A stretch of DNA of 64,000 nucleotides from a phage. How positions within the stretch are numbered: the stretch's first letter is position 1; the number at the start of each line of letters is the position of its first letter. Of this stretch, positions 50,062 to 56,839 are shown piece after piece. The position numbers and the translations under genes were made by a program. Below the pieces are notes generated by a model that was not told the DNA's origin, searched no databases, and was given only the letters and a program-made list of their open reading frames with translations. Location: the sequence record PZ338877.1; one strand, 5' to 3'.

Positions 50062-50137
50062 TGGAGAATCCGAAGGGACTCGAACCCTTATAAACCTGTT
50101 TTGCAGACAGGCACATATCCATTTCTGTCACGGATTC
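50062..50137 (-). tRNA. tRNA-Cys (anticodon GCA)
   Basis: minus-strand cloverleaf: T-arm AAGGG-ACTCGAA-CCCTT, anticodon arm CCTGT-TTTGCAG-ACAGG, acceptor CGGATTC, CCA encoded. Confidence 0.8.
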
Positions 50138-50141
50138 AAAT

Positions 50142-50234
50142 TGGAGGAAGATACCAGACTTGAACTGGTACACCGATTTCTCAGCTACTGGCAGTTTAGC
50201 AAACTGCTCCCTTACCTTTTAGGGTTAATCTTCC
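50142..50234 (-). tRNA. tRNA-Ser (anticodon GCU), class II
   Basis: T-arm ACCAG-ACTTGAA-CTGGT, anticodon arm GCAGT-TTAGCAA-ACTGC, 21-nt variable arm, 7-bp acceptor, CCA encoded. Confidence 0.75.
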
Positions 50235-50235
50235 A

Positions 50236-51033
50236 TTATTTCTGTAATGCGTTCTTCATTTCTGGTGTTGCAATAGTGTCAATCACACCAGTTTTACAAG
50301 CATCATCAAACCAGTCTGGTAAGATACCTGCTAAGAACCCATTGATATTCGTTTTAAGGTACTCTGCAATAAGGGCAGCTTCTTCTTCAATCATCTGCAC
50401 AACTTCATCTGCATAAGCTGTAATCTTCGAGATACCTTCATTAATCTTACTAACAGCTTGATTAGCTAAATCAGAAATAGTATCAAGACCTTTATCAATA
50501 GCATCCTGTAAGTCGCTTAATACACCATTAACGCCATCTAGTGTGCTGTTAATTGTATCCATAGCTTTTTGACCATACTCTGTAGCAACACCCATAATAC
50601 CACTAAATGGTGTACAACCAACTTGCTCTCCTGCTGCACCCATAACATTGGAGTAGCCTTTTGCTACCTGCATACGTGAGGAAAACTCATCAATAGATTT
50701 TTGACCATAATCTGTCAATGTTTTAGTAGTTGCTGTAGTGCTTGTCAGACTCGTTGTAAAGCTATTAAGCAGAACTGTTGTAAGTCCAGCAGCAATGAGC
50801 TTATCCTTCATTGTAGGGTCTGTTACAGAGCTAATAGAGCTTACAAGTGATGTAGAGGCAGCTACGGTTCCACCTAGAACTGCTGCACCAGTAATAAGGG
50901 GATTAGAAAACCCTCTACCGGTTTTTAAGAGATTAAAAATCTCCTTACCTTGTTCTGTCATCTCTTTCATTAAGCACCTTTGAAATTGGTAGTCCAGTGG
51001 GATTTGAACCCTCTTCTCATGTTTTTCAGACAC
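50236..51033 (-). CDS. hypothetical Ser/Thr/Ala-rich protein embedded in tRNA array
   Basis: 265 aa ORF between tRNA-Ser and tRNA-Phe. Confidence 0.45.
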   Translation of the reverse strand: MSEKHEKRVQIPLDYQFQRCLMKEMTEQGKEIFNLLKTGRGFSNPLITGAAVLGGTVAASTSLVSSISSVTDPTMKDKLIAAGLTTVLLNSFTTSLTSTTATTKTLTDYGQKSIDEFSSRMQVAKGYSNVMGAAGEQVGCTPFSGIMGVATEYGQKAMDTINSTLDGVNGVLSDLQDAIDKGLDTISDLANQAVSKINEGISKITAYADEVVQMIEEEAALIAEYLKTNINGFLAGILPDWFDDACKTGVIDTIATPEMKNALQK

Positions 51034-51063
51034 GCGCTTTAACCATATAAGCTACTTGGACTA
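50987..51063 (-). tRNA. tRNA-Phe (anticodon GAA)
   Basis: T-arm GTGGG-ATTTGAA-CCCTC, anticodon arm CATGT-TTTTCAG-ACACG; ends approximate. Confidence 0.65.
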
Positions 51064-51068
51064 TAAAT

Positions 51069-51144
51069 TGGGGTGACCTACGGGATTTGAACCCGTATAG
51101 ACCATGTTCACAGCATGGGTCATTACCATTTATGATAAGGCCAC
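51069..51144 (-). tRNA. tRNA-His (anticodon GUG)
   Basis: T-arm ACGGG-ATTTGAA-CCCGT, anticodon arm CCATG-TTCACAG-CATGG, D-stem TCAT/ATGA, CCA encoded. Confidence 0.8.
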
Positions 51145-51175
51145 ATTTAAGGACTCTCGTAAGAATCCTTAGAAG

Positions 51176-51251
51176 TGGCAGCGGCATAAGGATTTGAACC
51201 TTAATAAGACAGCTTCAGAGACTGCTGCATTGCCAGTTATGCTATACCGCT
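51176..51251 (-). tRNA. tRNA-Gln (anticodon CUG)
   Basis: T-arm TAAGG-ATTTGAA-CCTTA, anticodon loop TTCAGAG (rc CTCTGAA), D-stem GCAT/ATGC, CCA encoded. Confidence 0.75.
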
Positions 51252-51256
51252 AAATT

Positions 51257-51335
51257 TGGTACTCCATATCGGATTCGAACCGATACATAACACAGATTTT
51301 AAGTCTGGCCTCTCTGCCAATTGGAGTAATGGAGC
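51257..51335 (-). tRNA. tRNA with Leu-type anticodon UAA, short variable region
   Basis: T-arm ATCGG-ATTCGAA-CCGAT, anticodon loop TTTTAAG (rc CTTAAAA), 7-bp acceptor; only 79 nt. Confidence 0.6.
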
Positions 51336-51337
51336 AT

Positions 51338-51413
51338 TGGCGGGGGATGTTGGAATTGAACCAACTTCTTCGATTTCAAAGACCGAGGTTTTAACCTTGT
51401 AAACTAATCCCCT
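51338..51413 (-). tRNA. tRNA-Gln (anticodon UUG)
   Basis: T-arm GTTGG-AATTGAA-CCAAC, anticodon arm TCGAT-TTCAAAG-ACCGA, D-stem GTTT/AAAC, CCA encoded. Confidence 0.75.
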
Positions 51414-51421
51414 TTAAATCT

Positions 51422-51979
51422 TTACTTTCTTAGTGGATGAATAAAGAATGCCAACATAACTCTTTCCCTTGAGAATGCTCTTTCTTCTGGGACAACACTT
51501 TTAAGTTTCCATCCAACATAAATTCTCCAGTAGAATTGTTTACCAAAGACTTTAATTGATGGGATAAAGGCGAATAATCCCCAAGCATTACTGTTCCACA
51601 TTAGGAGATAACCTGTCTGATTATCTTCAGGGTCAGAACTTACGTTGATATTACCTTTCCACTTAGTAACATCTTTTACATCTCTTCCTAACACATGGTA
51701 AGAGAAGTTATAAGCTTTGTTTCTCCAGAGCCATCCAACTCTCTGCAAATAGACACCCAGCTTACCAATCTTTCTAATCTTAGCCCATCTTTTAATGTGA
51801 CCTTCATCACCATCAATTGGGTTGTCATATGTCTCCATCCATCTGAATCCGAAAGGTAGATGTCCTTTCTTCTCACTATAGAATGGAACTACAAAAGGTG
51901 CTAAGATAACTGCTAAGGTTGCTGCCAATGGGTCTAACAAAGCTAGGAAAATCCATGAAGCATACTTCAAATATCTCAT
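51422..51979 (-). CDS. membrane protein embedded in tRNA array
   Basis: 185 aa; N-terminal hydrophobic helices (ASWIFLALLDPLAATLAVILAPFVVPF). Confidence 0.45.
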   Translation of the reverse strand: MRYLKYASWIFLALLDPLAATLAVILAPFVVPFYSEKKGHLPFGFRWMETYDNPIDGDEGHIKRWAKIRKIGKLGVYLQRVGWLWRNKAYNFSYHVLGRDVKDVTKWKGNINVSSDPEDNQTGYLLMWNSNAWGLFAFIPSIKVFGKQFYWRIYVGWKLKSVVPEERAFSRERVMLAFFIHPLRK

Positions 51980-51998
51980 CTAAATAGCCTCTTTAAAT

Positions 51999-52074
51999 TG
52001 GTGCAGGATAAGGGATTCGAACCCCTATTAACAGCTTCGTAGACTGCTGCTCTATCCATTTGAACTAATCCTGC
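51999..52074 (-). tRNA. tRNA-Arg (anticodon ACG)
   Basis: T-arm AAGGG-ATTCGAA-CCCCT, anticodon loop TTCGTAG (rc CTACGAA), acceptor GCAGGAT/ATCCTGC, CCA encoded. Confidence 0.8.
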
Positions 52075-52188
52075 TTACCTACAAGAACACCATACAGTTT
52101 TTCACAATCTTTGTTTTTACGTCTGTTTAGGTATGACGCTCTAAACTTTTTTGCTATTGACTTATCACTCATAGTGCTCTCCCAAAAT

Positions 52189-52266
52189 TGGTGTTCCAAG
52201 ACGGATTCGAACCGTCACTAGTACAAGGTTTGAGCTTGCATCCTCTGCCAATTGGGATATTGGAAC
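52189..52266 (-). tRNA. tRNA with Leu-type anticodon CAA, class I-like (78 nt)
   Basis: T-arm GACGG-ATTCGAA-CCGTC, anticodon arm ACAAG-GTTTGAG-CTTGC, perfect acceptor GTTCCAA/TTGGAAC, A73, CCA encoded. Confidence 0.65.
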
Positions 52267-52267
52267 A

Positions 52268-52342
52268 TGGTGCTCACTAAAGGACTTGAACCTTTTTCTT
52301 CATCTTGTAAGGGTGATGTTTTACCATATAAACTAAGCGAGT
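52268..52342 (-). tRNA. tRNA-Val (anticodon UAC)
   Basis: T-arm AAAGG-ACTTGAA-CCTTT, anticodon loop TTGTAAG (rc CTTACAA), D-stem GTTT/AAAC. Confidence 0.7.
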
Positions 52343-52437
52343 ATGAAAGAGGTCTGAAGTTGTGCCGCTCACTCAACTCCGTGGAATTTGTTACGGTCTT
52401 CAGTTGACACCAGCGGTCTTTCACTTGACCTCTGAAT
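52343..52437 (-). ncRNA. structured non-tRNA element inside tRNA array (candidate small RNA)
   Basis: 95 nt between tRNA-Val and tRNA-Thr; closing 7-bp helix AGAGGUC/GACCUCU plus internal inverted repeats; lacks T-loop consensus; contains a GGTCTTCAG motif copy. Confidence 0.3.
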
Positions 52438-52513
52438 TGGTGCTCCCACAAGGATTCGAACCCTGATAAGTTGCTTACAAGGCAACCGTAATAGCCAATT
52501 ATACGATAGGAGC
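52438..52513 (-). tRNA. tRNA-Thr (anticodon UGU)
   Basis: T-arm CAAGG-ATTCGAA-CCCTG, perfect anticodon stem GTTGC/GCAAC with loop TTACAAG. Confidence 0.8.
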
Positions 52514-52520
52514 ATTAATT

Positions 52521-52595
52521 TGGAGCATCCAGAGGGAATCGAACCCTCAACCTCAGTTTGGAAGACTGTAATTTTCCCGTTTAAACTATGGATGC
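52521..52595 (-). tRNA. tRNA-Gly (anticodon UCC)
   Basis: T-arm GAGGG-AATCGAA-CCCTC, anticodon loop TTGGAAG, perfect acceptor GCATCCA/TGGATGC. Confidence 0.8.
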
Positions 52596-52601
52596 ACTAA
52601 T

Positions 52602-52677
52602 TGGTGGAGTCACTGAGAATTGAACTCAGTTCCCAAGTTTGCAAAACTCGAATTTTAACCATATAAACTATGACCCC
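52602..52677 (-). tRNA. tRNA-Ala (anticodon UGC)
   Basis: T-arm CTGAG-AATTGAA-CTCAG, anticodon arm CAAGT-TTGCAAA-ACTCG. Confidence 0.7.
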
Positions 52678-52683
52678 AATGTT

Positions 52684-52759
52684 TGGTACAGGTGGAGGGA
52701 ATTGAACCCATCGTCTTACTGATTAAGAGTCAGCCGCATAACCATTTTGCTACACCTGC
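52684..52759 (-). tRNA. tRNA-Lys (anticodon CUU)
   Basis: anticodon stem CTGA/TCAG with loop TTAAGAG; acceptor ACAGGTG/CACCTGC; paralogous to tRNA at 53998-54073. Confidence 0.7.
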
Positions 52760-52766
52760 ATTGATT

Positions 52767-52844
52767 TGGTAGGAGACAAGGGATTCGAACCCTCAAACAC
52801 CAACTTCTAAGGATGGTAGGTTTACCAATTACCGTCAATCTCCC
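52767..52844 (-). tRNA. tRNA with Leu-type anticodon UAG, class I-like (78 nt)
   Basis: T-arm AAGGG-ATTCGAA-CCCTC, anticodon arm CCAAC-TTCTAAG-GATGG, A73, CCA encoded. Confidence 0.6.
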
Positions 52845-53097
52845 ATTAAATCTTTTTAGAGAACTTCTAAGAACCTAAGCAACAAGGTTCCACAACAAGC
52901 TGTAATAACCTTAGAAGCCCTCTAAAAAGACCTAAATATGTCTTTGCATAGTCTTGTTTAATCCGGTGACTAGAACCTTTGGAGAGCTTGATATTATCTC
53001 TTCTCCGTGACACCTACTAGGTGCTTTATCAGTGTGTACGACAATACACGAGGGATAAACCGAAAATGCGAGCAAGCATGACGGTGTAAATCTTATT

Positions 53098-53188
53098 AGG
53101 CGGTAAGTAAAGGAGTCGAACCCTCACCGTATCTCTACAGTGGCAACAGTTTTCAAGACTGTTTGGCTGCCATTAGCCGCTACCTACC
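53098..53188 (-). tRNA. tRNA-Ser (anticodon UGA), class II
   Basis: T-arm AAAGG-AGTCGAA-CCCTC, perfect anticodon stem ACAGT/ACTGT with loop TTTCAAG, long variable arm. Confidence 0.7.
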
Positions 53189-53201
53189 CCTAATAAGACT
53201 T

Positions 53202-53284
53202 TGGCATGGGACGGAGGAGTTGAACCCCTTTGAAACGGTTTTGGAGGCCGTTGCTCATGCCTTAGAGTCTTAACATCGTCCCAC
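53202..53284 (-). tRNA. atypical tRNA-Trp-like gene (anticodon core CCA, 9-nt anticodon loop)
   Basis: T-arm GGAGG-AGTTGAA-CCCCT, acceptor ATGGGAC/GTCCCAC, CCA encoded; anticodon stem AACGG/CCGTT encloses 9 nt (tRNA sense CCUCCAAAA); D region about 8 nt longer than canonical. Confidence 0.5.
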
Positions 53285-53426
53285 ACTATAATTCGAAGCT
53301 TACCGTATTTTCGCAACACTGTAAAGCCCCTTCTCAGATTATTTACATGTTCTGGAAAACATGAGATACAGACCACCTCCTTACACGGAGACCCGATAAG
53401 GTCGTCTAAGCAATCTGCTAACTATT

Positions 53427-53503
53427 TGGCACACCCTACAGGATTCGAACCTGTAACTAACGATTTAGAAGACCGTTGCTCTATCCAATTGAACTAAGGG
53501 TGC
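53427..53503 (-). tRNA. tRNA-Arg (anticodon UCU)
   Basis: T-arm ACAGG-ATTCGAA-CCTGT, anticodon arm ACGAT-TTAGAAG-ACCGT, D-stem GCTC/GAAC. Confidence 0.8.
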
Positions 53504-53839
53504 ATTAATCTTTAAAGACTCTCTTAGAAAGCCCTTAAAGATGCCCACCTTATTAATCATACCGTGGGCGAGTACGCCAAATTCTTTGATGAGGGATTGG
53601 AAGACCTCACTGGTGTTTAGCCTATCAAGCTACTGCCAGAAAAACATTGTCGTTTGCATTTATTTTAAATTTGCAAAATAGACGCTACGCAACGAAAACT
53701 ATTCAGAATATGTACAACAAATTTCCCCACATTGTGTTACGTCTAACGCTCATGTATTGGTGTTTGAATTATACATATTGTGAAGTATTTTAGTTACTAT
53801 AAAGTGGTCACATCTTAATGTCAACAACTTTATTGAAAT

Positions 53840-53915
53840 TGGTACTGGTAGGTGGAATCGAACCACCGATGTTCCCTTATCAGGGGAGTGTTATAACCTT
53901 CTTAACTATACCAGC
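53840..53915 (-). tRNA. tRNA-Ile (anticodon GAU)
   Basis: T-arm GGTGG-AATCGAA-CCACC, anticodon loop TTATCAG, acceptor ACTGGTA/TACCAGC. Confidence 0.8.
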
Positions 53916-53916
53916 T

Positions 53917-53993
53917 TGGAGGTTCAGATGGGAATCGAACCCACATTCATAGGGCTTATGAGACCCCTGCATTACCTTATCTGCGACTGAACC
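53917..53993 (-). tRNA. tRNA with CAU anticodon (Met/fMet; three G-C pairs in anticodon stem)
   Basis: T-arm ATGGG-AATCGAA-CCCAC, anticodon arm AGGGC-TTATGAG-ACCCC, perfect acceptor GGTTCAG/CTGAACC. Confidence 0.75.
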
Positions 53994-53997
53994 ATAT

Positions 53998-54073
53998 TGG
54001 TAGAAGTGGAGGGATTCGAACCCATCGCCTGTCAGATTAAAAGTCTGCCGCATCACCATTCTGCTACACTTCC
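53998..54073 (-). tRNA. tRNA-Lys (anticodon UUU)
   Basis: anticodon stem CAGA/TCTG with loop TTAAAAG; acceptor AGAAGTG/CACTTCC. Confidence 0.7.
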
Positions 54074-54275
54074 ATTAAATTACCTTTGCAGTAACCTACG
54101 CAGACCTTGCTAAAGGGTCTGTAGAGTCATTTCCTCTTAAGCTAATCTAGAATCATGCTAAGGAAATTCATCGGCACTCATGGGACGACATAATTAGCCA
54201 CATAAGCTACTGCAAAGATAATTACCAGACCGTTGTTTATCATCTTAAGTGCTACCATTACACCAACTCGACATC

Positions 54276-54321
54276 TGCCGAGTGAAGGAATCGAACCTTC
54301 GCCTTTTCTTTACCGGAGAAA
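54276..54321 (-). pseudogene. tRNA-like fragment (3' half only)
   Basis: intact T-arm GAAGG-AATCGAA-CCTTC and 3' acceptor strand plus a 5-7-5 hairpin, but no complementary 5' acceptor strand; anticodon loop has C at position 33. Confidence 0.35.
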
Positions 54322-54336
54322 TAGATTGTTTAAGTT

Positions 54337-54360
54337 TTGCTGTAAACGGTCTTCTGTAAA
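54337..54360. repeat. short repeat family copy (TTGCTGTAAACGGTCTTCTGTAAA)
   Basis: one of 4-5 copies of TTGCTG(Y)A(W)(W)(Y)GGTCTTCTG within tRNA array. Confidence 0.7.
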
Positions 54361-54423
54361 TTTGTTGAGCCAGACCAAGTTTTAAATTTTTCAAAATTAA
54401 ATTGGCTTGAAATTTTAAGTAAC

Positions 54424-54444
54424 TTGCTGTATTTGGTCTTCTGC
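54424..54444. repeat. short repeat family copy (TTGCTGTATTTGGTCTTCTGC)
   Basis: same motif family. Confidence 0.7.
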
Positions 54445-54530
54445 TCCTTTAAAGAATACTCGTAAGAACTCTTTAAGGGAGGGGCTAAATAGCCCTCTCA
54501 AAACATCATCTTGAAATACTTATTATAATT

Positions 54531-54608
54531 TGGCGGTTACGAAGGGATTTGAACCCTCATCATCTCCCGTGACAGGGGAGTATTTTAACCAGATTAAACT
54601 ACATAACC
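54531..54608 (-). tRNA. tRNA-Asp (anticodon GUC)
   Basis: T-arm AAGGG-ATTTGAA-CCCTC, perfect anticodon stem CTCCC/GGGAG with loop GTGACAG. Confidence 0.8.
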
Positions 54609-54614
54609 TTTATT

Positions 54615-54702
54615 TGGTGTGCCGTGTAGGAGTCGAACCTACCGAGTCTCAATGACAAGGGATTTACAGTCCCCACCGCTACCATCTACGGGATAACGAC
54701 AC
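54615..54702 (-). tRNA. tRNA-Tyr (anticodon GUA), class II
   Basis: T-arm GTAGG-AGTCGAA-CCTAC, anticodon arm AGGGA-TTTACAG-TCCCC, 15-nt variable arm. Confidence 0.75.
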
Positions 54703-54773
54703 ATTTTATTATTCTATTCAGGCTAAGGACTTGCACCTTACAAATCGGTGAGCAATCGCTTCTCTCCTAAATT

Positions 54774-54850
54774 TGGCGGTTAGTCAGGGATTCGAACCCT
54801 GTGCCATTCGCTTAACAGGCGACCGCACATACCTTATGTGCTTCCTAACC
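54774..54850 (-). tRNA. tRNA-Asn (anticodon GUU)
   Basis: T-arm CAGGG-ATTCGAA-CCCTG, anticodon loop TTAACAG, D-stem GCAC/GTGC. Confidence 0.7.
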
Positions 54851-54902
54851 TTAATACATTGCCAGACCGTGTTTTTTTCTTTTATCCGCAAAAAGTAGTT
54901 TG

Positions 54903-54927
54903 TTGCTGCATACGGTCTTCTGCAAAA
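54903..54927. repeat. short repeat family copy (TTGCTGCATACGGTCTTCTGCAAA)
   Basis: same motif family, immediately 3' of tRNA at 54929. Confidence 0.7.
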
Positions 54928-54928
54928 T

Positions 54929-55005
54929 TGGAGGCGGGTGCAGGAGTCGAACCTGCCGATACCATGCTAATGAGACATGTGAGACGCCCTTTCTCTATAC
55001 CCGCA
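54929..55005 (-). tRNA. tRNA with CAU anticodon (second copy; Met or Ile2-type)
   Basis: T-arm GCAGG-AGTCGAA-CCTGC, anticodon arm CATGC-TAATGAG-ACATG; 1:72 unpaired; U at position 37. Confidence 0.6.
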
Positions 55006-55069
55006 ATTCTTAATGACCAGACCAAATCTCTTCTTTGTCCGATTTACCTTCAGATGAATAAGATTAAGT

Positions 55070-55094
55070 TTGCTGTAATTGGTCTTCTGTCAAA
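55070..55094. repeat. short repeat family copy (TTGCTGTAATTGGTCTTCTGTCAAA)
   Basis: same motif family, immediately 3' of tRNA-Glu. Confidence 0.7.
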
Positions 55095-55096
55095 AC

Positions 55097-55174
55097 TGGC
55101 GTTCCAGAAGGGATTTGAACCCTCAAATATCCACTTTGAAAGAGTGGTGACTTTACCATTTTGTCTACTGGAAC
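55097..55174 (-). tRNA. tRNA-Glu (anticodon UUC)
   Basis: T-arm AAGGG-ATTTGAA-CCCTC, perfect anticodon stem CCACT/AGTGG with loop TTGAAAG, perfect acceptor. Confidence 0.8.
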
Positions 55175-55181
55175 ATTAATT

Positions 55182-55258
55182 TGGTCTCTGTTGGAGGACT
55201 TGAACCTCCGGCCTTACCGCCCCAAACGGAACGCTCTACCAAGCTGAGCTAAACAGAG
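55182..55258 (-). tRNA. tRNA-Pro (anticodon UGG)
   Basis: T-arm GGAGG-ACTTGAA-CCTCC, anticodon loop CCCCAAA, D-stem GCTC/GAGC, perfect acceptor. Confidence 0.8.
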
Positions 55259-55423: not shown

Positions 55424-56839
55424 TTACCAGATGTAACGGTCAATCATTACTGCTTTGAGCATTACGCTGATTGGGTCAAACTTCTCACCGCCAAGAAGAG
55501 CTTTTAAAGTGGCTGGAGAGAACCCTGATACCATTGCTACACCATTATCCTTAACAGATACTTCGCAAGTACCATTACGGTTTGCTAAGTACCAGAATAC
55601 TAGTTGCGGCATTTCGTATCCAGCTTTTTTGTACTTACTCTGAATTGCTTCAAAGTTTGTACGACCATTTGCACCATCAACCTGATTAAACTCCATATCA
55701 GAGAAGATAATGAGCTTACTTGGCATATCTTTCTGAGTCAAGTTGTTTCTCTTACCTACCTCAAGGATACGGTCAAAAGCTGCTTGTAAGTTAGTTGAGC
55801 CATATTCAACATGACGCATTACCTGACGGTGACGGTTTCGTAAATCACCACTCAGTTCAATGAAATGAGGGTTTGTTGAATAGACCATTAACTCATCTTT
55901 AAAGCAACCTGTATTGCGTTCTGCTACATACAAGGCAAGTGATACACCAATATCAAGGGCAGTAATTGAGCCAAGATTCACCCAAGACATTGAGCTTGAA
56001 ACATCAGTCATACATAAGATGTTTTCACCTTCTGCCATCCAGTTTGGTAGTGCTTTCCACTGCTCATTAGCGACATCAGCATTACCATACTTGATAGATT
56101 TAATCACATCGTATGGGTAAACAGCACCAGCGTTAATCTTGGCCTCACCTTTTGAGAGGGACTCGATGTAAGCTTTGTAACGTTCCCCATCTTTACGGCT
56201 AAAGAGCTTTTGGTAACGTGCAGCAGCGAGTGAAGGAATCTTGCTGTAGTCAATCTTACCAAACTCATTAGCAGAGATTTTTTGCTCAACCGTATCAGAT
56301 AGTGCAGATAACAGTGTGCGATACTCCTTCTCACTTAAGTTTGCAAACTTACAGAAACGTTTTACAAACTGTTTATGGCGTGGTTTTACTCGTGGCAACC
56401 ACTTAGCTGCTAAACCTGCTGTTGCAGGGTCTAGTAATGCTGATTCTAAATGTTTGAAGGCATCTGTCTCAAAACGAGTACCTACGAAGATTTTGAAGTC
56501 ATCAAAACGACCAAGTTCTGCAATCTTATCCATAATGCGAAGAACCTGTGTAGGTTCTAAAACTTTATCTTCAATTGCTTGAAGTAAAACAGTTCGGAAA
56601 GCTTTACGCTCACCCATACCTTCTCGTACATCTCGCATATGCAGTAAAATACGAACTGCAACATCAACATCCTCACGCAAAGCTTTGTAGAACAGGTCTG
56701 GTAAGATTTCTACATTGCTACGGCTTGAGCCAGCGGCTTTGTAAAAATCTACCAGAGCAGACATTGATGAAGTATGGTTTACAGCACCATTTTCAGTTCG
56801 ACCTGCATGAAGGTGCGCATGTTTAAATAACTCGCTCAT
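55424..56839 (-). CDS. vWA-domain protein with N-terminal helical domain (Ro60/TROVE-like or DUF2828-like, putative)
   Basis: 471 aa; C-terminal von Willebrand A fold with MIDAS-like DVSSSMS and later LIIFSDMEFN; N-terminal about 270-aa helical region; first gene upstream of tRNA array. Confidence 0.55.
   Translation of the reverse strand: MSELFKHAHLHAGRTENGAVNHTSSMSALVDFYKAAGSSRSNVEILPDLFYKALREDVDVAVRILLHMRDVREGMGERKAFRTVLLQAIEDKVLEPTQVLRIMDKIAELGRFDDFKIFVGTRFETDAFKHLESALLDPATAGLAAKWLPRVKPRHKQFVKRFCKFANLSEKEYRTLLSALSDTVEQKISANEFGKIDYSKIPSLAAARYQKLFSRKDGERYKAYIESLSKGEAKINAGAVYPYDVIKSIKYGNADVANEQWKALPNWMAEGENILCMTDVSSSMSWVNLGSITALDIGVSLALYVAERNTGCFKDELMVYSTNPHFIELSGDLRNRHRQVMRHVEYGSTNLQAAFDRILEVGKRNNLTQKDMPSKLIIFSDMEFNQVDGANGRTNFEAIQSKYKKAGYEMPQLVFWYLANRNGTCEVSVKDNGVAMVSGFSPATLKALLGGEKFDPISVMLKAVMIDRYIW

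What the first reader, a model, noticed from the sequence alone, without database searches (positions are those of the whole stretch)
53202..53284. Trp-type tRNA with a 9-nt anticodon loop and expanded D region
This gene has a canonical T-arm, a 7-bp acceptor stem and encoded CCA. Its anticodon stem (AACGG/CCGTT) encloses 9 nt (tRNA sense C-CUCCAAA-A): the canonical tRNA-Trp loop CUCCAAA flanked by a C-A mismatch. The segment between acceptor and anticodon stems is about 8 nt longer than a standard D-arm. It is the only Trp-decoding candidate in the array. It could be a functional but unusual tRNA-Trp, a frameshift-prone variant, or a pseudogene.
Basis: seen in the sequence. Interest (0 to 1): 0.55.

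Follow-up and report, generated by a model that had tools for sequence, protein, structure and literature searches.

The report
Hidden, oddly built phage tRNA-Trp gene
Felix O1-type phages carry a conserved tryptophan-type tRNA gene that every tRNA finder and annotation sampled misses because extra bases sit in front of its D-arm; it would be the twentieth amino-acid specificity in a tRNA set described as covering only nineteen.

Summary
Window 53202-53284 (minus strand) encodes an 83-nt RNA with a tRNA cloverleaf, anticodon CCA, discriminator G and an encoded CCA end.

- **Missed by tools.** ARAGORN and Rfam's tRNA model do not call it, and none of the 60 sampled phage records annotates it as a tRNA.
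- **Conserved.** It sits between tRNA-Arg(UCU) and tRNA-Ser(UGA) in Felixounavirus, Mooglevirus, Suspvirus, Pectobacterium and Yersinia phages and in metagenomic relatives.
- **Under selection.** All four helices are kept by compensatory changes: 8 of 20 pairs changed on both sides, 99.6% of cells paired. It is not a pseudogene.
- **Extra bases.** They lie 5' of a normal 3-bp D-stem, not inside the D-arm. The stretch GAUGUUAAGA never varies and looks like the displaced 5' strand of the ancestral D-stem. Deleting 6 nt makes ARAGORN call tRNA-Trp(CCA).
- **The "9-nt loop".** This is a normal 7-nt loop closed by a never-paired 31/39 position (C·A or C·C). Canonical tRNA-Trp genes of sister Erwinia phages share it.

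Most likely it is a working but unusual tRNA-Trp, possibly with an 8/4 acceptor/T branch. Charging and decoding are untested, and some lineages have irregular acceptor stems.

The parts
53202..53284 (-). Whole 83-nt tRNA-Trp-like gene
   Evidence: Covariance model R1 hit at 110.9 bits, exactly these ends. Same cloverleaf from RNAalifold. Not called by ARAGORN. Rfam best match is tRNA-Sec at 23 bits, below threshold.
53278..53284 (-). Acceptor stem, 5' strand GUGGGAC (G1.U72 in this phage, A1-U72 in most relatives)
   Evidence: Pairs 1-7 are 100% paired in 14 sequences. Pairs 1-72 and 2-71 change on both sides in the Pectobacterium and Yersinia phages.
53268..53277 (-). Invariant connector GAUGUUAAGA. 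G8 can pair with C65 (53213). The rest is the 6-7 nt excess and resembles the ancestral U8 A9 G10 U11 U12 / A14 A15 segment
   Evidence: 0 of 10 positions vary in 13 divergent sequences, while 21 of 38 stem positions vary. Aligns with the 5' half of the D-arm of the phiEa21-4 and E. coli tRNA-Trp genes. Deleting 6 nt here makes ARAGORN call tRNA-Trp.
53254..53267 (-). D-arm: stem CUC/GAG (53265-53267 with 53254-53256) and 8-nt loop UAAGGCAU containing the invariant GG
   Evidence: 100% paired, with U-A to A-U in 6 of 14 sequences and G-C / U-A in metagenomic L170. D-loop is 8-10 nt in relatives.
53248..53252 (-). Anticodon stem, 5' strand AACGG
   Evidence: 4 of 5 pairs change on both sides across lineages: AACGG/CCGUU, GUAAG/CUUAC, GUAGG/CCUAC, ACUUG/CAAGU.
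53239..53247 (-). Nine unpaired bases C-CUCCAAA-A, meaning a 7-nt loop (U33, anticodon, A37) closed by a C31.A39 mismatch
   Evidence: The closing position is C.A or C.C in every sequence and never a Watson-Crick pair. The same holds in the canonical Kolesnikvirus tRNA-Trp genes.
53242..53244 (-). Anticodon CCA (reads UGG, Trp)
   Evidence: Invariant in all variants.
53234..53238 (-). Anticodon stem, 3' strand CCGUU
   Evidence: Covaries with 53248-53252.
53229..53233 (-). Variable loop UCAAA
   Evidence: 0 of 5 positions vary.
53214..53228 (-). T-arm: stem GGGG/CCUC (4 pairs) and loop UUCAACU
   Evidence: The outermost pair changes G-C to U-A in Moogle and Sf13. Loop follows UUCRANU.
53205..53213 (-). 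C65 (53213; partner of G8 or mismatched with A49), acceptor 3' strand GUCCCAU (53206-53212) and discriminator G73 (53205)
   Evidence: G8-C65 is invariant and complementary in all sequences. In the canonical Kolesnikvirus tRNA-Trp genes position 8 is U and 49-65 is G-C.
53202..53204 (-). Encoded 3' CCA
   Evidence: Invariant together with G73.
53796..53824 (-). Context: sigma-70-like promoter TTGACA-17-TATAGT upstream of tRNA-Arg(UCU), this gene and tRNA-Ser(UGA)
   Evidence: 11 of 12 consensus match. Its role is inferred, not shown.

Best explanation
It is a conserved, functional descendant of a phage tRNA-Trp gene with a rebuilt 5' half.

An insertion of about 7 nt in the ancestral D-loop supplied a new 5' strand (CUC). 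That strand now pairs with the old 3' strand (GAG). The old 5' strand and its neighbours were pushed out as an invariant 9-10-nt connector, GAUGUUAAGA.

U8 became G and G49 became A, so C65 can pair with G8. This gives an 8-bp acceptor stem over a 4-bp T-stem, still 12 stacked pairs in all. Positions 31 and 39 stay unpaired, as in the other Ounavirinae tRNA-Trp genes examined.

The proposed working, all of it inferred:
- The RNA is transcribed with its neighbours in the tRNA operon and trimmed to an 83-nt molecule ending in G-CCA.
- The host TrpRS charges it through the anticodon CCA, G73 and, in most lineages, A1-U72.
- It reads UGG in phage mRNAs, which completes a phage tRNA set for all 20 amino acids.

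Shown here: the gene, its cloverleaf, selection on that structure, and its kinship with tRNA-Trp. Not shown: transcription, processing, charging and decoding.
For: - **Covariation.** 20 pairs are 99.6% paired in 14 distinct sequences. 8 pairs changed on both sides, 0 of 500 shuffles reached the observed score, and the slid controls are near zero. RNAalifold gives the same structure de novo, with further compensatory changes in the metagenomic lineage L170.
- **Invariant functional positions.** U33, CCA, A37, G18G19, the T-loop core, G73 and the CCA end never vary.
- **Synteny.** The order Arg(UCU) - element - Ser(UGA) holds in every lineage examined.
- **Completing the set.** ARAGORN finds 26 tRNAs for 19 amino acids in the window and in Yersinia phage P778, with Trp the only one missing in both. 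In Pectobacterium phage Arno162 it finds 23, lacking Trp and Ser. The literature describes the Moogle-like phage Sf14 as having 26 tRNAs for 19 amino acids (PMC12482277).
- **Kinship with tRNA-Trp.** Outside its own family, model R1 scores the annotated tRNA-Trp of Erwinia phage phiEa21-4 highest (35 bits), narrowly ahead of other full-length tRNAs (33.7 bits and below). The two share CGGCCUCCAAAACCG and the C31.A39 mismatch.
- **Mutual exclusivity.** The one Kolesnikvirus tRNA array searched with R1 (phiEa21-4) has the canonical tRNA-Trp and no copy of this form. Felix-type phages have this form and no canonical tRNA-Trp.
- **Only the extra bases block detection.** Deleting any of several 6-nt blocks in the connector makes ARAGORN call tRNA-Trp(CCA).
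- **Not coding.** Indels of +2 and +1 nt in relatives rule out a conserved reading frame.
- **Precedent.** 8/4 tRNAs, including phage tRNA-Ser and tRNA-His and forms with one bulged base, are described in PMC5389517.
Against: - No expression, processing or charging data exist for this locus. Literature searches found none.
- A 9-nt connector replaces the 2-nt U8-N9 linker. Position 8 is G and the first D-loop base is U, so the usual U8-A14 core contact cannot form as such.
- The top of the acceptor stem is irregular in some lineages: a one-base bulge in the Pectobacterium and Yersinia phages, and U2.U71 plus C3.U70 in metagenomic L170. This is where TrpRS, RNase P and EF-Tu act.
- Irregular 8/4 tRNA-like RNAs with an extra loop between the acceptor and D stems, found in Acidobacteria, could not be charged by E. 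coli enzymes in vitro (PMC7609411).
- The absolute invariance of the connector and the variable loop could point to a ligand other than the translation machinery.
- Trp codon use in the phage is ordinary (1.24%), so no special demand is evident.
Confidence: 0.6

Rival explanations
1. It is a tRNA-derived structured RNA that no longer works in decoding. It would act as a mimic or decoy, for example by binding or diverting a host tRNA-directed defence nuclease, a tRNA-modifying or repair enzyme, TrpRS, or a phage RNA-binding protein. The invariant connector and variable loop would be the recognition surface.
For: - The connector (0 of 10 positions variable) and the variable loop (0 of 5) are far more constrained than the stems.
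- The acceptor-stem top is irregular in three lineages, while the other three helices are kept perfectly.
- The same array holds other non-canonical tRNA-like RNAs: a circularly permuted tRNA-like region at about 54120-54400 and a tmRNA-tag-like region at 53504-53700.
- The gene just upstream of the array belongs to a PHROG family annotated as RNA-binding protein.
- tRNA-targeting defences and phage tRNA counter-measures are documented (PMC10264068, PMC11555353).
Against: - Every feature that matters only for charging and decoding is invariant: U33, CCA, A37, G73 and the CCA end.
- Positions 32 and 38 change together, C32/A38 to U32/C38, as expected for a loop tuned for the ribosome.
- It fills exactly the one missing amino acid, and it is mutually exclusive with a canonical tRNA-Trp in the one sister-genus array searched.
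- No partner has been identified.
Confidence: 0.22
2. It is a decoding-altered tRNA-Trp. The unpaired 31/39 position (an effective 9-nt loop) and the loosened hinge next to the D-stem would make it read UGA as Trp, as the Hirsh D-arm suppressor does, or shift the reading frame at particular phage sites.
For: - Nine bases are unpaired between five covarying pairs in every lineage.
- The change sits at positions 8-10, next to the D-stem. From established knowledge, the G24A (Hirsh) mutation of E. coli tRNA-Trp in that stem relaxes decoding.
- The 31/39 mismatch is conserved even in the canonical Ounavirinae tRNA-Trp genes, whereas the host gene has U31-A39.
Against: - The 7-nt loop core is the normal tRNA-Trp loop, with no extra base next to the anticodon.
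- UGA is an ordinary stop codon here (13 of 66 long ORFs).
- I did not search for a phage gene interrupted by in-frame UGA, or for one needing a frameshift at UGG, and none was noticed.
- The mismatch is shared with tRNAs that have a standard hinge.
Confidence: 0.1
3. It is a decaying tRNA-Trp pseudogene, or a chance tRNA-like fold, or part of a small protein-coding ORF (some records annotate a hypothetical protein here).
For: - It fails ARAGORN and Rfam's tRNA threshold.
- The single-sequence folding z-score is only -1.5.
- A 67-codon GTG-start ORF overlaps it.
Against: - Compensatory substitutions in all four helices arose after the insertion.
- It is more conserved than the flanking spacers: 0.92 mean column identity against about 0.79-0.81.
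- Indels of 2 nt and 1 nt break any reading frame.
- The overlapping ORF runs on into the genuine tRNA-Ser.
Confidence: 0.03

Closest known systems
Canonical tRNA-Trp of Kolesnikvirus phages (Erwinia phages phiEa21-4 and Hena2) and E. coli trpT
   Same: - Anticodon CCA, loop YUCCAAA, G73 and a class I 5-nt variable loop.
- A1-U72 in most copies.
- With the phage genes it also shares the never-paired 31/39 position (C.A or C.C) and the core CGGCYUCCAAA.
   Different: - A 9-10-nt connector replaces U8-A9.
- The D-stem uses a new 5' strand.
- G8 and A49 replace U8 and G49.
- 26-44 is a covarying Watson-Crick pair.
- The position in the array differs: between Arg(UCU) and Ser(UGA), rather than between Gly and Thr.
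(8/4) tRNAs and allo-tRNA-like RNAs (Mukai et al. 2017, PMC5389517; review PMC7609411)
   Same: - Possibly an 8-bp acceptor stem with a 4-bp T-stem, a 12-bp branch.
- Such tRNAs are found in phage tRNA clusters.
- Variants with one bulged base exist, as do variants with an extra loop between the acceptor and D stems.
   Different: - The known ones are Ser, His, Cys or Sec types, many with long variable arms. This one is class I with a Trp anticodon.
- The 8/4 reading rests here on an invariant G8-C65, which covariation cannot test.
Frameshift-suppressor tRNAs with 8- or 9-nt anticodon loops (sufD/sufJ type and engineered quadruplet decoders)
   Same: More than seven unpaired bases between the anticodon-stem strands.
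   Different: The extra bases are positions 31 and 39 at the stem end, not an insertion beside the anticodon. The 7-nt core is canonical.
Hirsh UGA-suppressor tRNA-Trp (G24A in the D-stem; from established knowledge)
   Same: A tRNA-Trp altered in the D-stem and hinge region while the anticodon is unchanged.
   Different: Hirsh is a point mutation in a standard cloverleaf. Here a whole strand has been replaced and 6-7 nt added. No suppression is shown.

Membership tests
tRNA (Rfam RF00005; ARAGORN and tRNAscan-SE definition) | Score above the detection threshold of standard tools | tested here: not met
   ARAGORN makes no call even at relaxed thresholds. The Rfam tRNA model scores below the 23-bit tRNA-Sec match, against a threshold of 29. 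Records annotated with tRNAscan-SE or ARAGORN have no feature here.
tRNA | Four-helix cloverleaf maintained by evolution | tested here: met
   99.6% of cells paired and 8 pairs with compensatory changes. RNAalifold gives the same fold. Canonical tRNAs align end to end with model R1.
tRNA | 7-nt anticodon loop with U33 and purine 37 on a 5-bp stem | tested here: inconclusive
   The core YUCCAAM with U33 and A37 is invariant. Position 31/39 is never a standard pair (C.A or C.C), and the fifth covarying pair sits at 26-44.
tRNA | Two-base connector (U8, N9) and the U8-A14 core contact | tested here: not met
   The connector is GAUGUUAAGA, 9-10 nt. Position 8 is G and the first D-loop base is U.
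tRNA | G18G19 in the D-loop and a T-loop of the form UUCRANY | tested here: met
   GG is invariant. T-loops seen are UUCAACU, UUCGAAU, UUCGACU, UUCAAAU and UUCGAUU.
tRNA | Aminoacylation and use on the ribosome | not testable with these tools
   No tRNA-seq or charging data were found.
tRNA-Trp identity (E. coli TrpRS; elements recalled from Himeno et al. 1991) | Anticodon C34 C35 A36 and discriminator G73 | tested here: met
   Invariant in all variants and the same as in E. coli trpT.
tRNA-Trp identity | A1-U72 (minor element) | tested here: inconclusive
   A-U in 8, G.U in 4 (this window included) and G-C in 2 of 14 variants.
(8/4) tRNA architecture | 8-bp acceptor stem plus 4-bp T-stem | tested here: inconclusive
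   G8-C65 is complementary and A49.C65 mismatched in all sequences. Neither position ever varies, so covariation cannot decide. The canonical relatives have U8 and G49-C65.
Allo-tRNA | Long variable arm (class II) with Ser/Leu-type identity | tested here: not met
   The variable loop is 5 nt, UCAAA.
Expanded-anticodon-loop frameshift suppressor | Extra nucleotide within or next to the anticodon | tested here: not met
   The loop core is the canonical 7 nt. The extra unpaired bases are positions 31 and 39.
tRNA pseudogene | No selection for structure | tested here: not met
   Compensatory changes in all four helices, and more conserved than the flanking spacers.

The most novel reading that the evidence does not exclude
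Ounavirinae phages keep a purpose-built tRNA-Trp that differs from the host's in two ways. The 31/39 pair is deliberately left open in every lineage examined. In the Felix O1 clade, an invariant displaced strand also sits at the acceptor/D hinge.

These features would do more than supply Trp. They could make the RNA resistant to, or a decoy for, a host nuclease or toxin aimed at tRNA-Trp. Alternatively they could loosen decoding, in a Hirsh-like way, so that the phage reads UGA or shifts frame at chosen sites. Either way this would be a natural, functional class I tRNA with an architecture not described before: 8/4 with a 9-nt connector.
Probability: 0.2. Interest if true: 0.8.

Novelty: new variant of a known kind. 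Interest (0 to 1): 0.6.

Why it matters
- **It corrects the record.** Felix O1, Moogle and related phages are described as encoding tRNAs for 19 amino acids and lacking Trp. If this RNA is charged, they encode a complete set of 20. That bears on the debate over whether phage tRNAs serve codon supply or replace host tRNAs destroyed by defence systems.
- **It exposes a blind spot.** Standard tRNA finders miss a gene that covariation shows to be under strong selection. The same may be true in other phage tRNA arrays.
- **It is a natural structural experiment.** The RNA carries a strand-replaced D-stem, a 9-nt acceptor/D connector, a possible 8/4 branch and an open 31/39 position. It tests how much change the tRNA core tolerates, which is useful for tRNA engineering.

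Tried and rejected
- **Alternative D-helix AUGU/GCAU with a 12-nt loop.** Only wobble-compatible changes support it, and in the Pectobacterium and Yersinia phages it would be one A-U pair plus three G.U pairs. It cannot coexist with CUC/GAG, which shows true compensation. Rejected.
- **Ancestral-type D-stem GUU/AGC with a 16-nt loop.** This is the register Rfam's tRNA-Sec alignment uses. It is broken in 6 of 14 sequences. Rejected as the conserved fold, though it may be a minor conformer in Felixounavirus.
- **Protein-coding reading.** The overlapping ORFs are short, run into the neighbouring tRNA-Ser, and are broken by 2-nt and 1-nt indels in relatives.
- **Genome-wide UGA recoding.** UGA ends 13 of 66 long ORFs.
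- **Special Trp demand.** UGG makes up 1.24% of codons, which is unremarkable.
- **Exact 14-mer scan of IMG/VR.** It returned mostly chance matches.
- **Two wasted collection scans.** Searches returned nothing because I miscounted a spacer in the pattern. I corrected it after a local check. The single genome contigs match was a chance match.
- **Expression data.** Literature searches on Felixounavirus tRNAs and transcriptomes found nothing for this locus.
- **Neighbouring gene.** The PDB sequence search and the DUF2828 literature search for the adjacent RNA-binding-protein gene gave nothing useful.

Full report
**What the window is.** The region is 99% identical to Escherichia phage HMD-P10, vB_EcoM_Shy and other Felixounavirus genomes of about 88 kb, in the subfamily Ounavirinae. 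On the minus strand, 50062-55258 is a tRNA array. ARAGORN finds 26 tRNAs there, covering every amino acid except Trp.

**The observation.** In tRNA sense, 53284-53202 reads GUGGGAC GAUGUUAAGA CUC UAAGGCAU GAG C AACGG C-CUCCAAA-A CCGUU UCAAA GGGG UUCAACU CCUC C GUCCCAU G CCA.
- ARAGORN does not call the gene, even at relaxed thresholds.
- Rfam's tRNA model stays below threshold. The best Rfam match is tRNA-Sec at 23 bits against a threshold of 47.
- The minimum-free-energy fold is the cloverleaf, but its stability alone is unremarkable (z = -1.5).

**Conservation.**
- blastn finds the 101-nt stretch in 236 phage records. These are Felixounavirus (95% identity or more), Mooglevirus and Suspvirus (86-92%) and Pectobacterium phages (77%). 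None of the 60 sampled records annotates a tRNA there.
- Further copies came from Yersinia phage P778, from IMG/VR and from metagenomes. The metagenomic contig L170 is clearly more divergent.
- ARAGORN misses the gene in every one of these loci.
- In each lineage it lies between tRNA-Arg(UCU) and tRNA-Ser(UGA).
- In a 900-nt multi-genus alignment it is more conserved (0.92 mean column identity) than the spacers on either side (about 0.79-0.81). It is slightly less conserved than tRNA-Ser (0.97), and its differences are mostly paired changes.

**Structure and covariation.**
- On 14 distinct sequences the cloverleaf has 20 pairs and 99.6% of cells paired. Eight pairs changed on both sides. None of 500 shuffles reached the observed score, and the controls with slid partners are essentially zero.
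- The anticodon stem runs through AACGG/CCGUU, GACGG/CCGUU, GUAAG/CUUAC, GUAGG/CCUAC and ACUUG/CAAGU.
- The D-stem runs through CUC/GAG, CAC/GUG, UAC/GUG and CGU/ACG.
- T-stem pair 50-64 switches from G-C to U-A.
- Acceptor pair 2-71 switches from U-A to C-G.
- RNAalifold predicts the same structure without being given it.
- A covariance model built on the alignment hits the window once, at exactly 53202-53284 (110.9 bits). It then hits the annotated tRNA-Trp of Erwinia phage phiEa21-4 (35 bits), narrowly ahead of ordinary tRNAs (33.7 bits and below). All of these align over the full model length.
- The RNA is therefore a tRNA homologue under selection for its fold, and tRNA-Trp is its nearest relative. 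A pseudogene, a chance fold or a coding region does not fit. Indels of 2 nt and 1 nt in relatives also exclude a conserved reading frame.

**Where the extra bases are.**
- The D-arm proper is ordinary: a 3-bp stem and an 8-10-nt loop with an invariant GG.
- The excess of 6-7 nt lies between the acceptor stem and the D-stem.
- Deleting any of several 6-nt blocks there makes ARAGORN call a 77-nt tRNA-Trp(CCA). That call has a 7-nt loop, a C31.A39 mismatch and an A49.C65 mismatch.
- The stretch GAUGUUAAGA is invariant in all 13 divergent sequences (0 of 10 positions), as is the variable loop UCAAA (0 of 5). By contrast, 21 of 38 stem positions vary.
- Aligned with the phiEa21-4 and E. coli tRNA-Trp genes, this stretch matches the ancestral U8 A9 G10 U11 U12 / A14 A15 segment.
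- My reading, which is inference, is that an insertion in the ancestral D-loop supplied a new 5' strand that captured the old 3' strand. The old 5' strand was left displaced.
- Two alternative D-helices were tested and fit worse. AUGU/GCAU shows only wobble-compatible changes. The ancestral register GUU/AGC is broken in 6 of 14 sequences.

**The "9-nt loop".**
The next position is C.A, or C.C in the Pectobacterium and Yersinia phages, and is never a standard pair.
- In standard numbering, the same secondary structure has a Watson-Crick 26-44 pair, 27-30/40-43, and mismatches at 31/39, 10/25 and 49/65.
- The canonical tRNA-Trp genes of the sister genus Kolesnikvirus, which are detected by software and annotated, carry the same open 31/39 position. 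It is C.A with CUCCAAA in phiEa21-4 and C.C with UUCCAAA in Hena2. The single-copy host gene has U31-A39.
- The open 31/39 position is thus a family trait of the Ounavirinae tRNA-Trp genes examined. It is not a peculiarity of this gene and not an inserted base beside the anticodon. This weakens the frameshift reading.
- Positions 32 and 38 change together, C/A to U/C.

**Possible 8/4 branch.** The canonical relatives have U8 and G49-C65. This gene has G8, A49 and C65 in every lineage, so C65 can pair with G8. That would give an 8-bp acceptor stem on a 4-bp T-stem, still 12 pairs. None of these positions varies, so covariation cannot decide. Precedents exist:
- 8/4 tRNAs, including tRNA-Ser and tRNA-His in phage clusters.
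- 8/4 variants with a bulged base.
- 8/4 forms with an extra loop between the acceptor and D stems.

These are described in PMC5389517 and PMC7609411. The extra-loop forms could not be charged by E. coli enzymes in vitro.

**For and against a working tRNA-Trp.**
- For: U33, CCA, A37, G73 and the CCA end are invariant. A1-U72 is present in most copies. The gene supplies the one missing specificity. It is mutually exclusive with a canonical tRNA-Trp in the one sister-genus array searched. It lies in an operon-like run of genuine tRNAs, downstream of a strong sigma-70-like promoter match at 53824-53796.
- Against: there are no expression or charging data. The core contacts around position 8 must differ. 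The top of the acceptor stem has a one-base bulge in the Pectobacterium and Yersinia phages and two pyrimidine mismatches in L170.
- Other checks: UGA is an ordinary stop codon (13 of 66 long ORFs) and Trp codon use is ordinary (1.24%). Nothing points to recoding or to special demand.

**What is known.** The Felix O1 genome paper lists 22 tRNAs and does not mention Trp (PMC3185647). A 2025 study of the Moogle-like phage Sf14 states 26 tRNAs for 19 amino acids (PMC12482277). I found no description of this gene. The TrpRS identity elements I cite (CCA, G73, A1-U72) are from memory of Himeno et al. 1991, not from a tool.

**Verdict.** The gene is real, conserved and so far unrecognised. It is tRNA-Trp-derived and has a new architecture.

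| Reading | My estimate |
|---|---|
| Working tRNA-Trp | about 0.6 |
| Non-decoding tRNA mimic | about 0.2 |
| Decoding-altered tRNA | about 0.1 |
| Pseudogene, chance fold or ORF | about 0.03 |

I class it as a new variant of a known kind.

Noticed in passing
window 53504-53700 (minus strand); L153:24100-24290: Downstream of the promoter-like site there is a conserved non-coding stretch holding a tmRNA-tag-like frame: AAAUAAAU GCA AAC GAC AAU GUU UUU CUG GCA GUA GCU UGA, which translates to ANDNVFLAVA*. Erwinia phage phiEa21-4 has the homologous ANDAQFLAVA*. Rfam gives only weak partial tmRNA matches (15.9 and 20.3 bits) and ARAGORN calls no tmRNA. It may be an unannotated phage tmRNA-like gene.
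   Followed up: partly
window about 54120-54400 (minus strand): In the 457-nt gap between tRNA-Asp and tRNA-Lys(UUU) lies a circularly permuted tRNA-like layout. The order is anticodon-arm-like hairpin, T-arm GGUUCGAUUCC, 3' acceptor strand ACUCGGC, then the complementary 5' strand GUCGAGU and a D-arm-like UGGUGUAAUGGUAGCAC. After that comes GCAGUAGCUUAUGUGGCUAA, which resembles the end of the tag-like frame at 53620-53640. The order recalls two-piece tmRNA or Y-RNA-like tRNA mimics. Rfam sees only a partial tRNA match (22 bits).
   Followed up: partly
window 55424-56839 (minus strand): The 471-aa gene directly upstream of the tRNA array, in the same orientation, matches PHROG 850 (annotated as RNA-binding protein; E = 1e-183) and Pfam DUF2828 plus DUF7788. 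It has no relative in the PDB by sequence. It could be a partner of the non-canonical RNAs in the array.
   Followed up: partly
L153:23877-24045 (Erwinia phage phiEa21-4): Just after tRNA-Arg(UCU) sits a closed tRNA-like RNA of about 169 nt. It runs from GGGUGAUU, through about 150 nt, to GGUUCGAAUCC and AAUCACUC G CCA. It is unannotated and lies directly upstream of the tag-like region.
   Followed up: no
L002:3109-3200 (Pectobacterium phage Arno162): A tRNA-Ser(UGA)-like sequence follows the Trp-like gene. ARAGORN does not call it and it ends in GCCU rather than GCCA. ARAGORN finds neither Ser nor Trp in that phage.
   Followed up: no
window 53285-53426 (minus strand); L002:2886-2999; L134:3983-4108; L170:1101-1225: The spacer upstream of the gene holds a near-perfect extended Shine-Dalgarno-like motif, UAAGGAGGUGGUC, which is also present in L170. 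In the Pectobacterium, Yersinia and L170 lineages a conserved 37-41-codon ORF (MDR..KRFAICFPSG...) sits here. In the window only a 7-codon remnant, MFSRTCK*, is left.
   Followed up: no
L001 (phage Shy annotation) against window 50062-50137 and 51069-51144: tRNA-Cys(GCA) and tRNA-His(GUG) of this array are labelled pseudo by tRNAscan-SE in the Shy record, although ARAGORN and Rfam score them well (53-56 bits).
   Followed up: no
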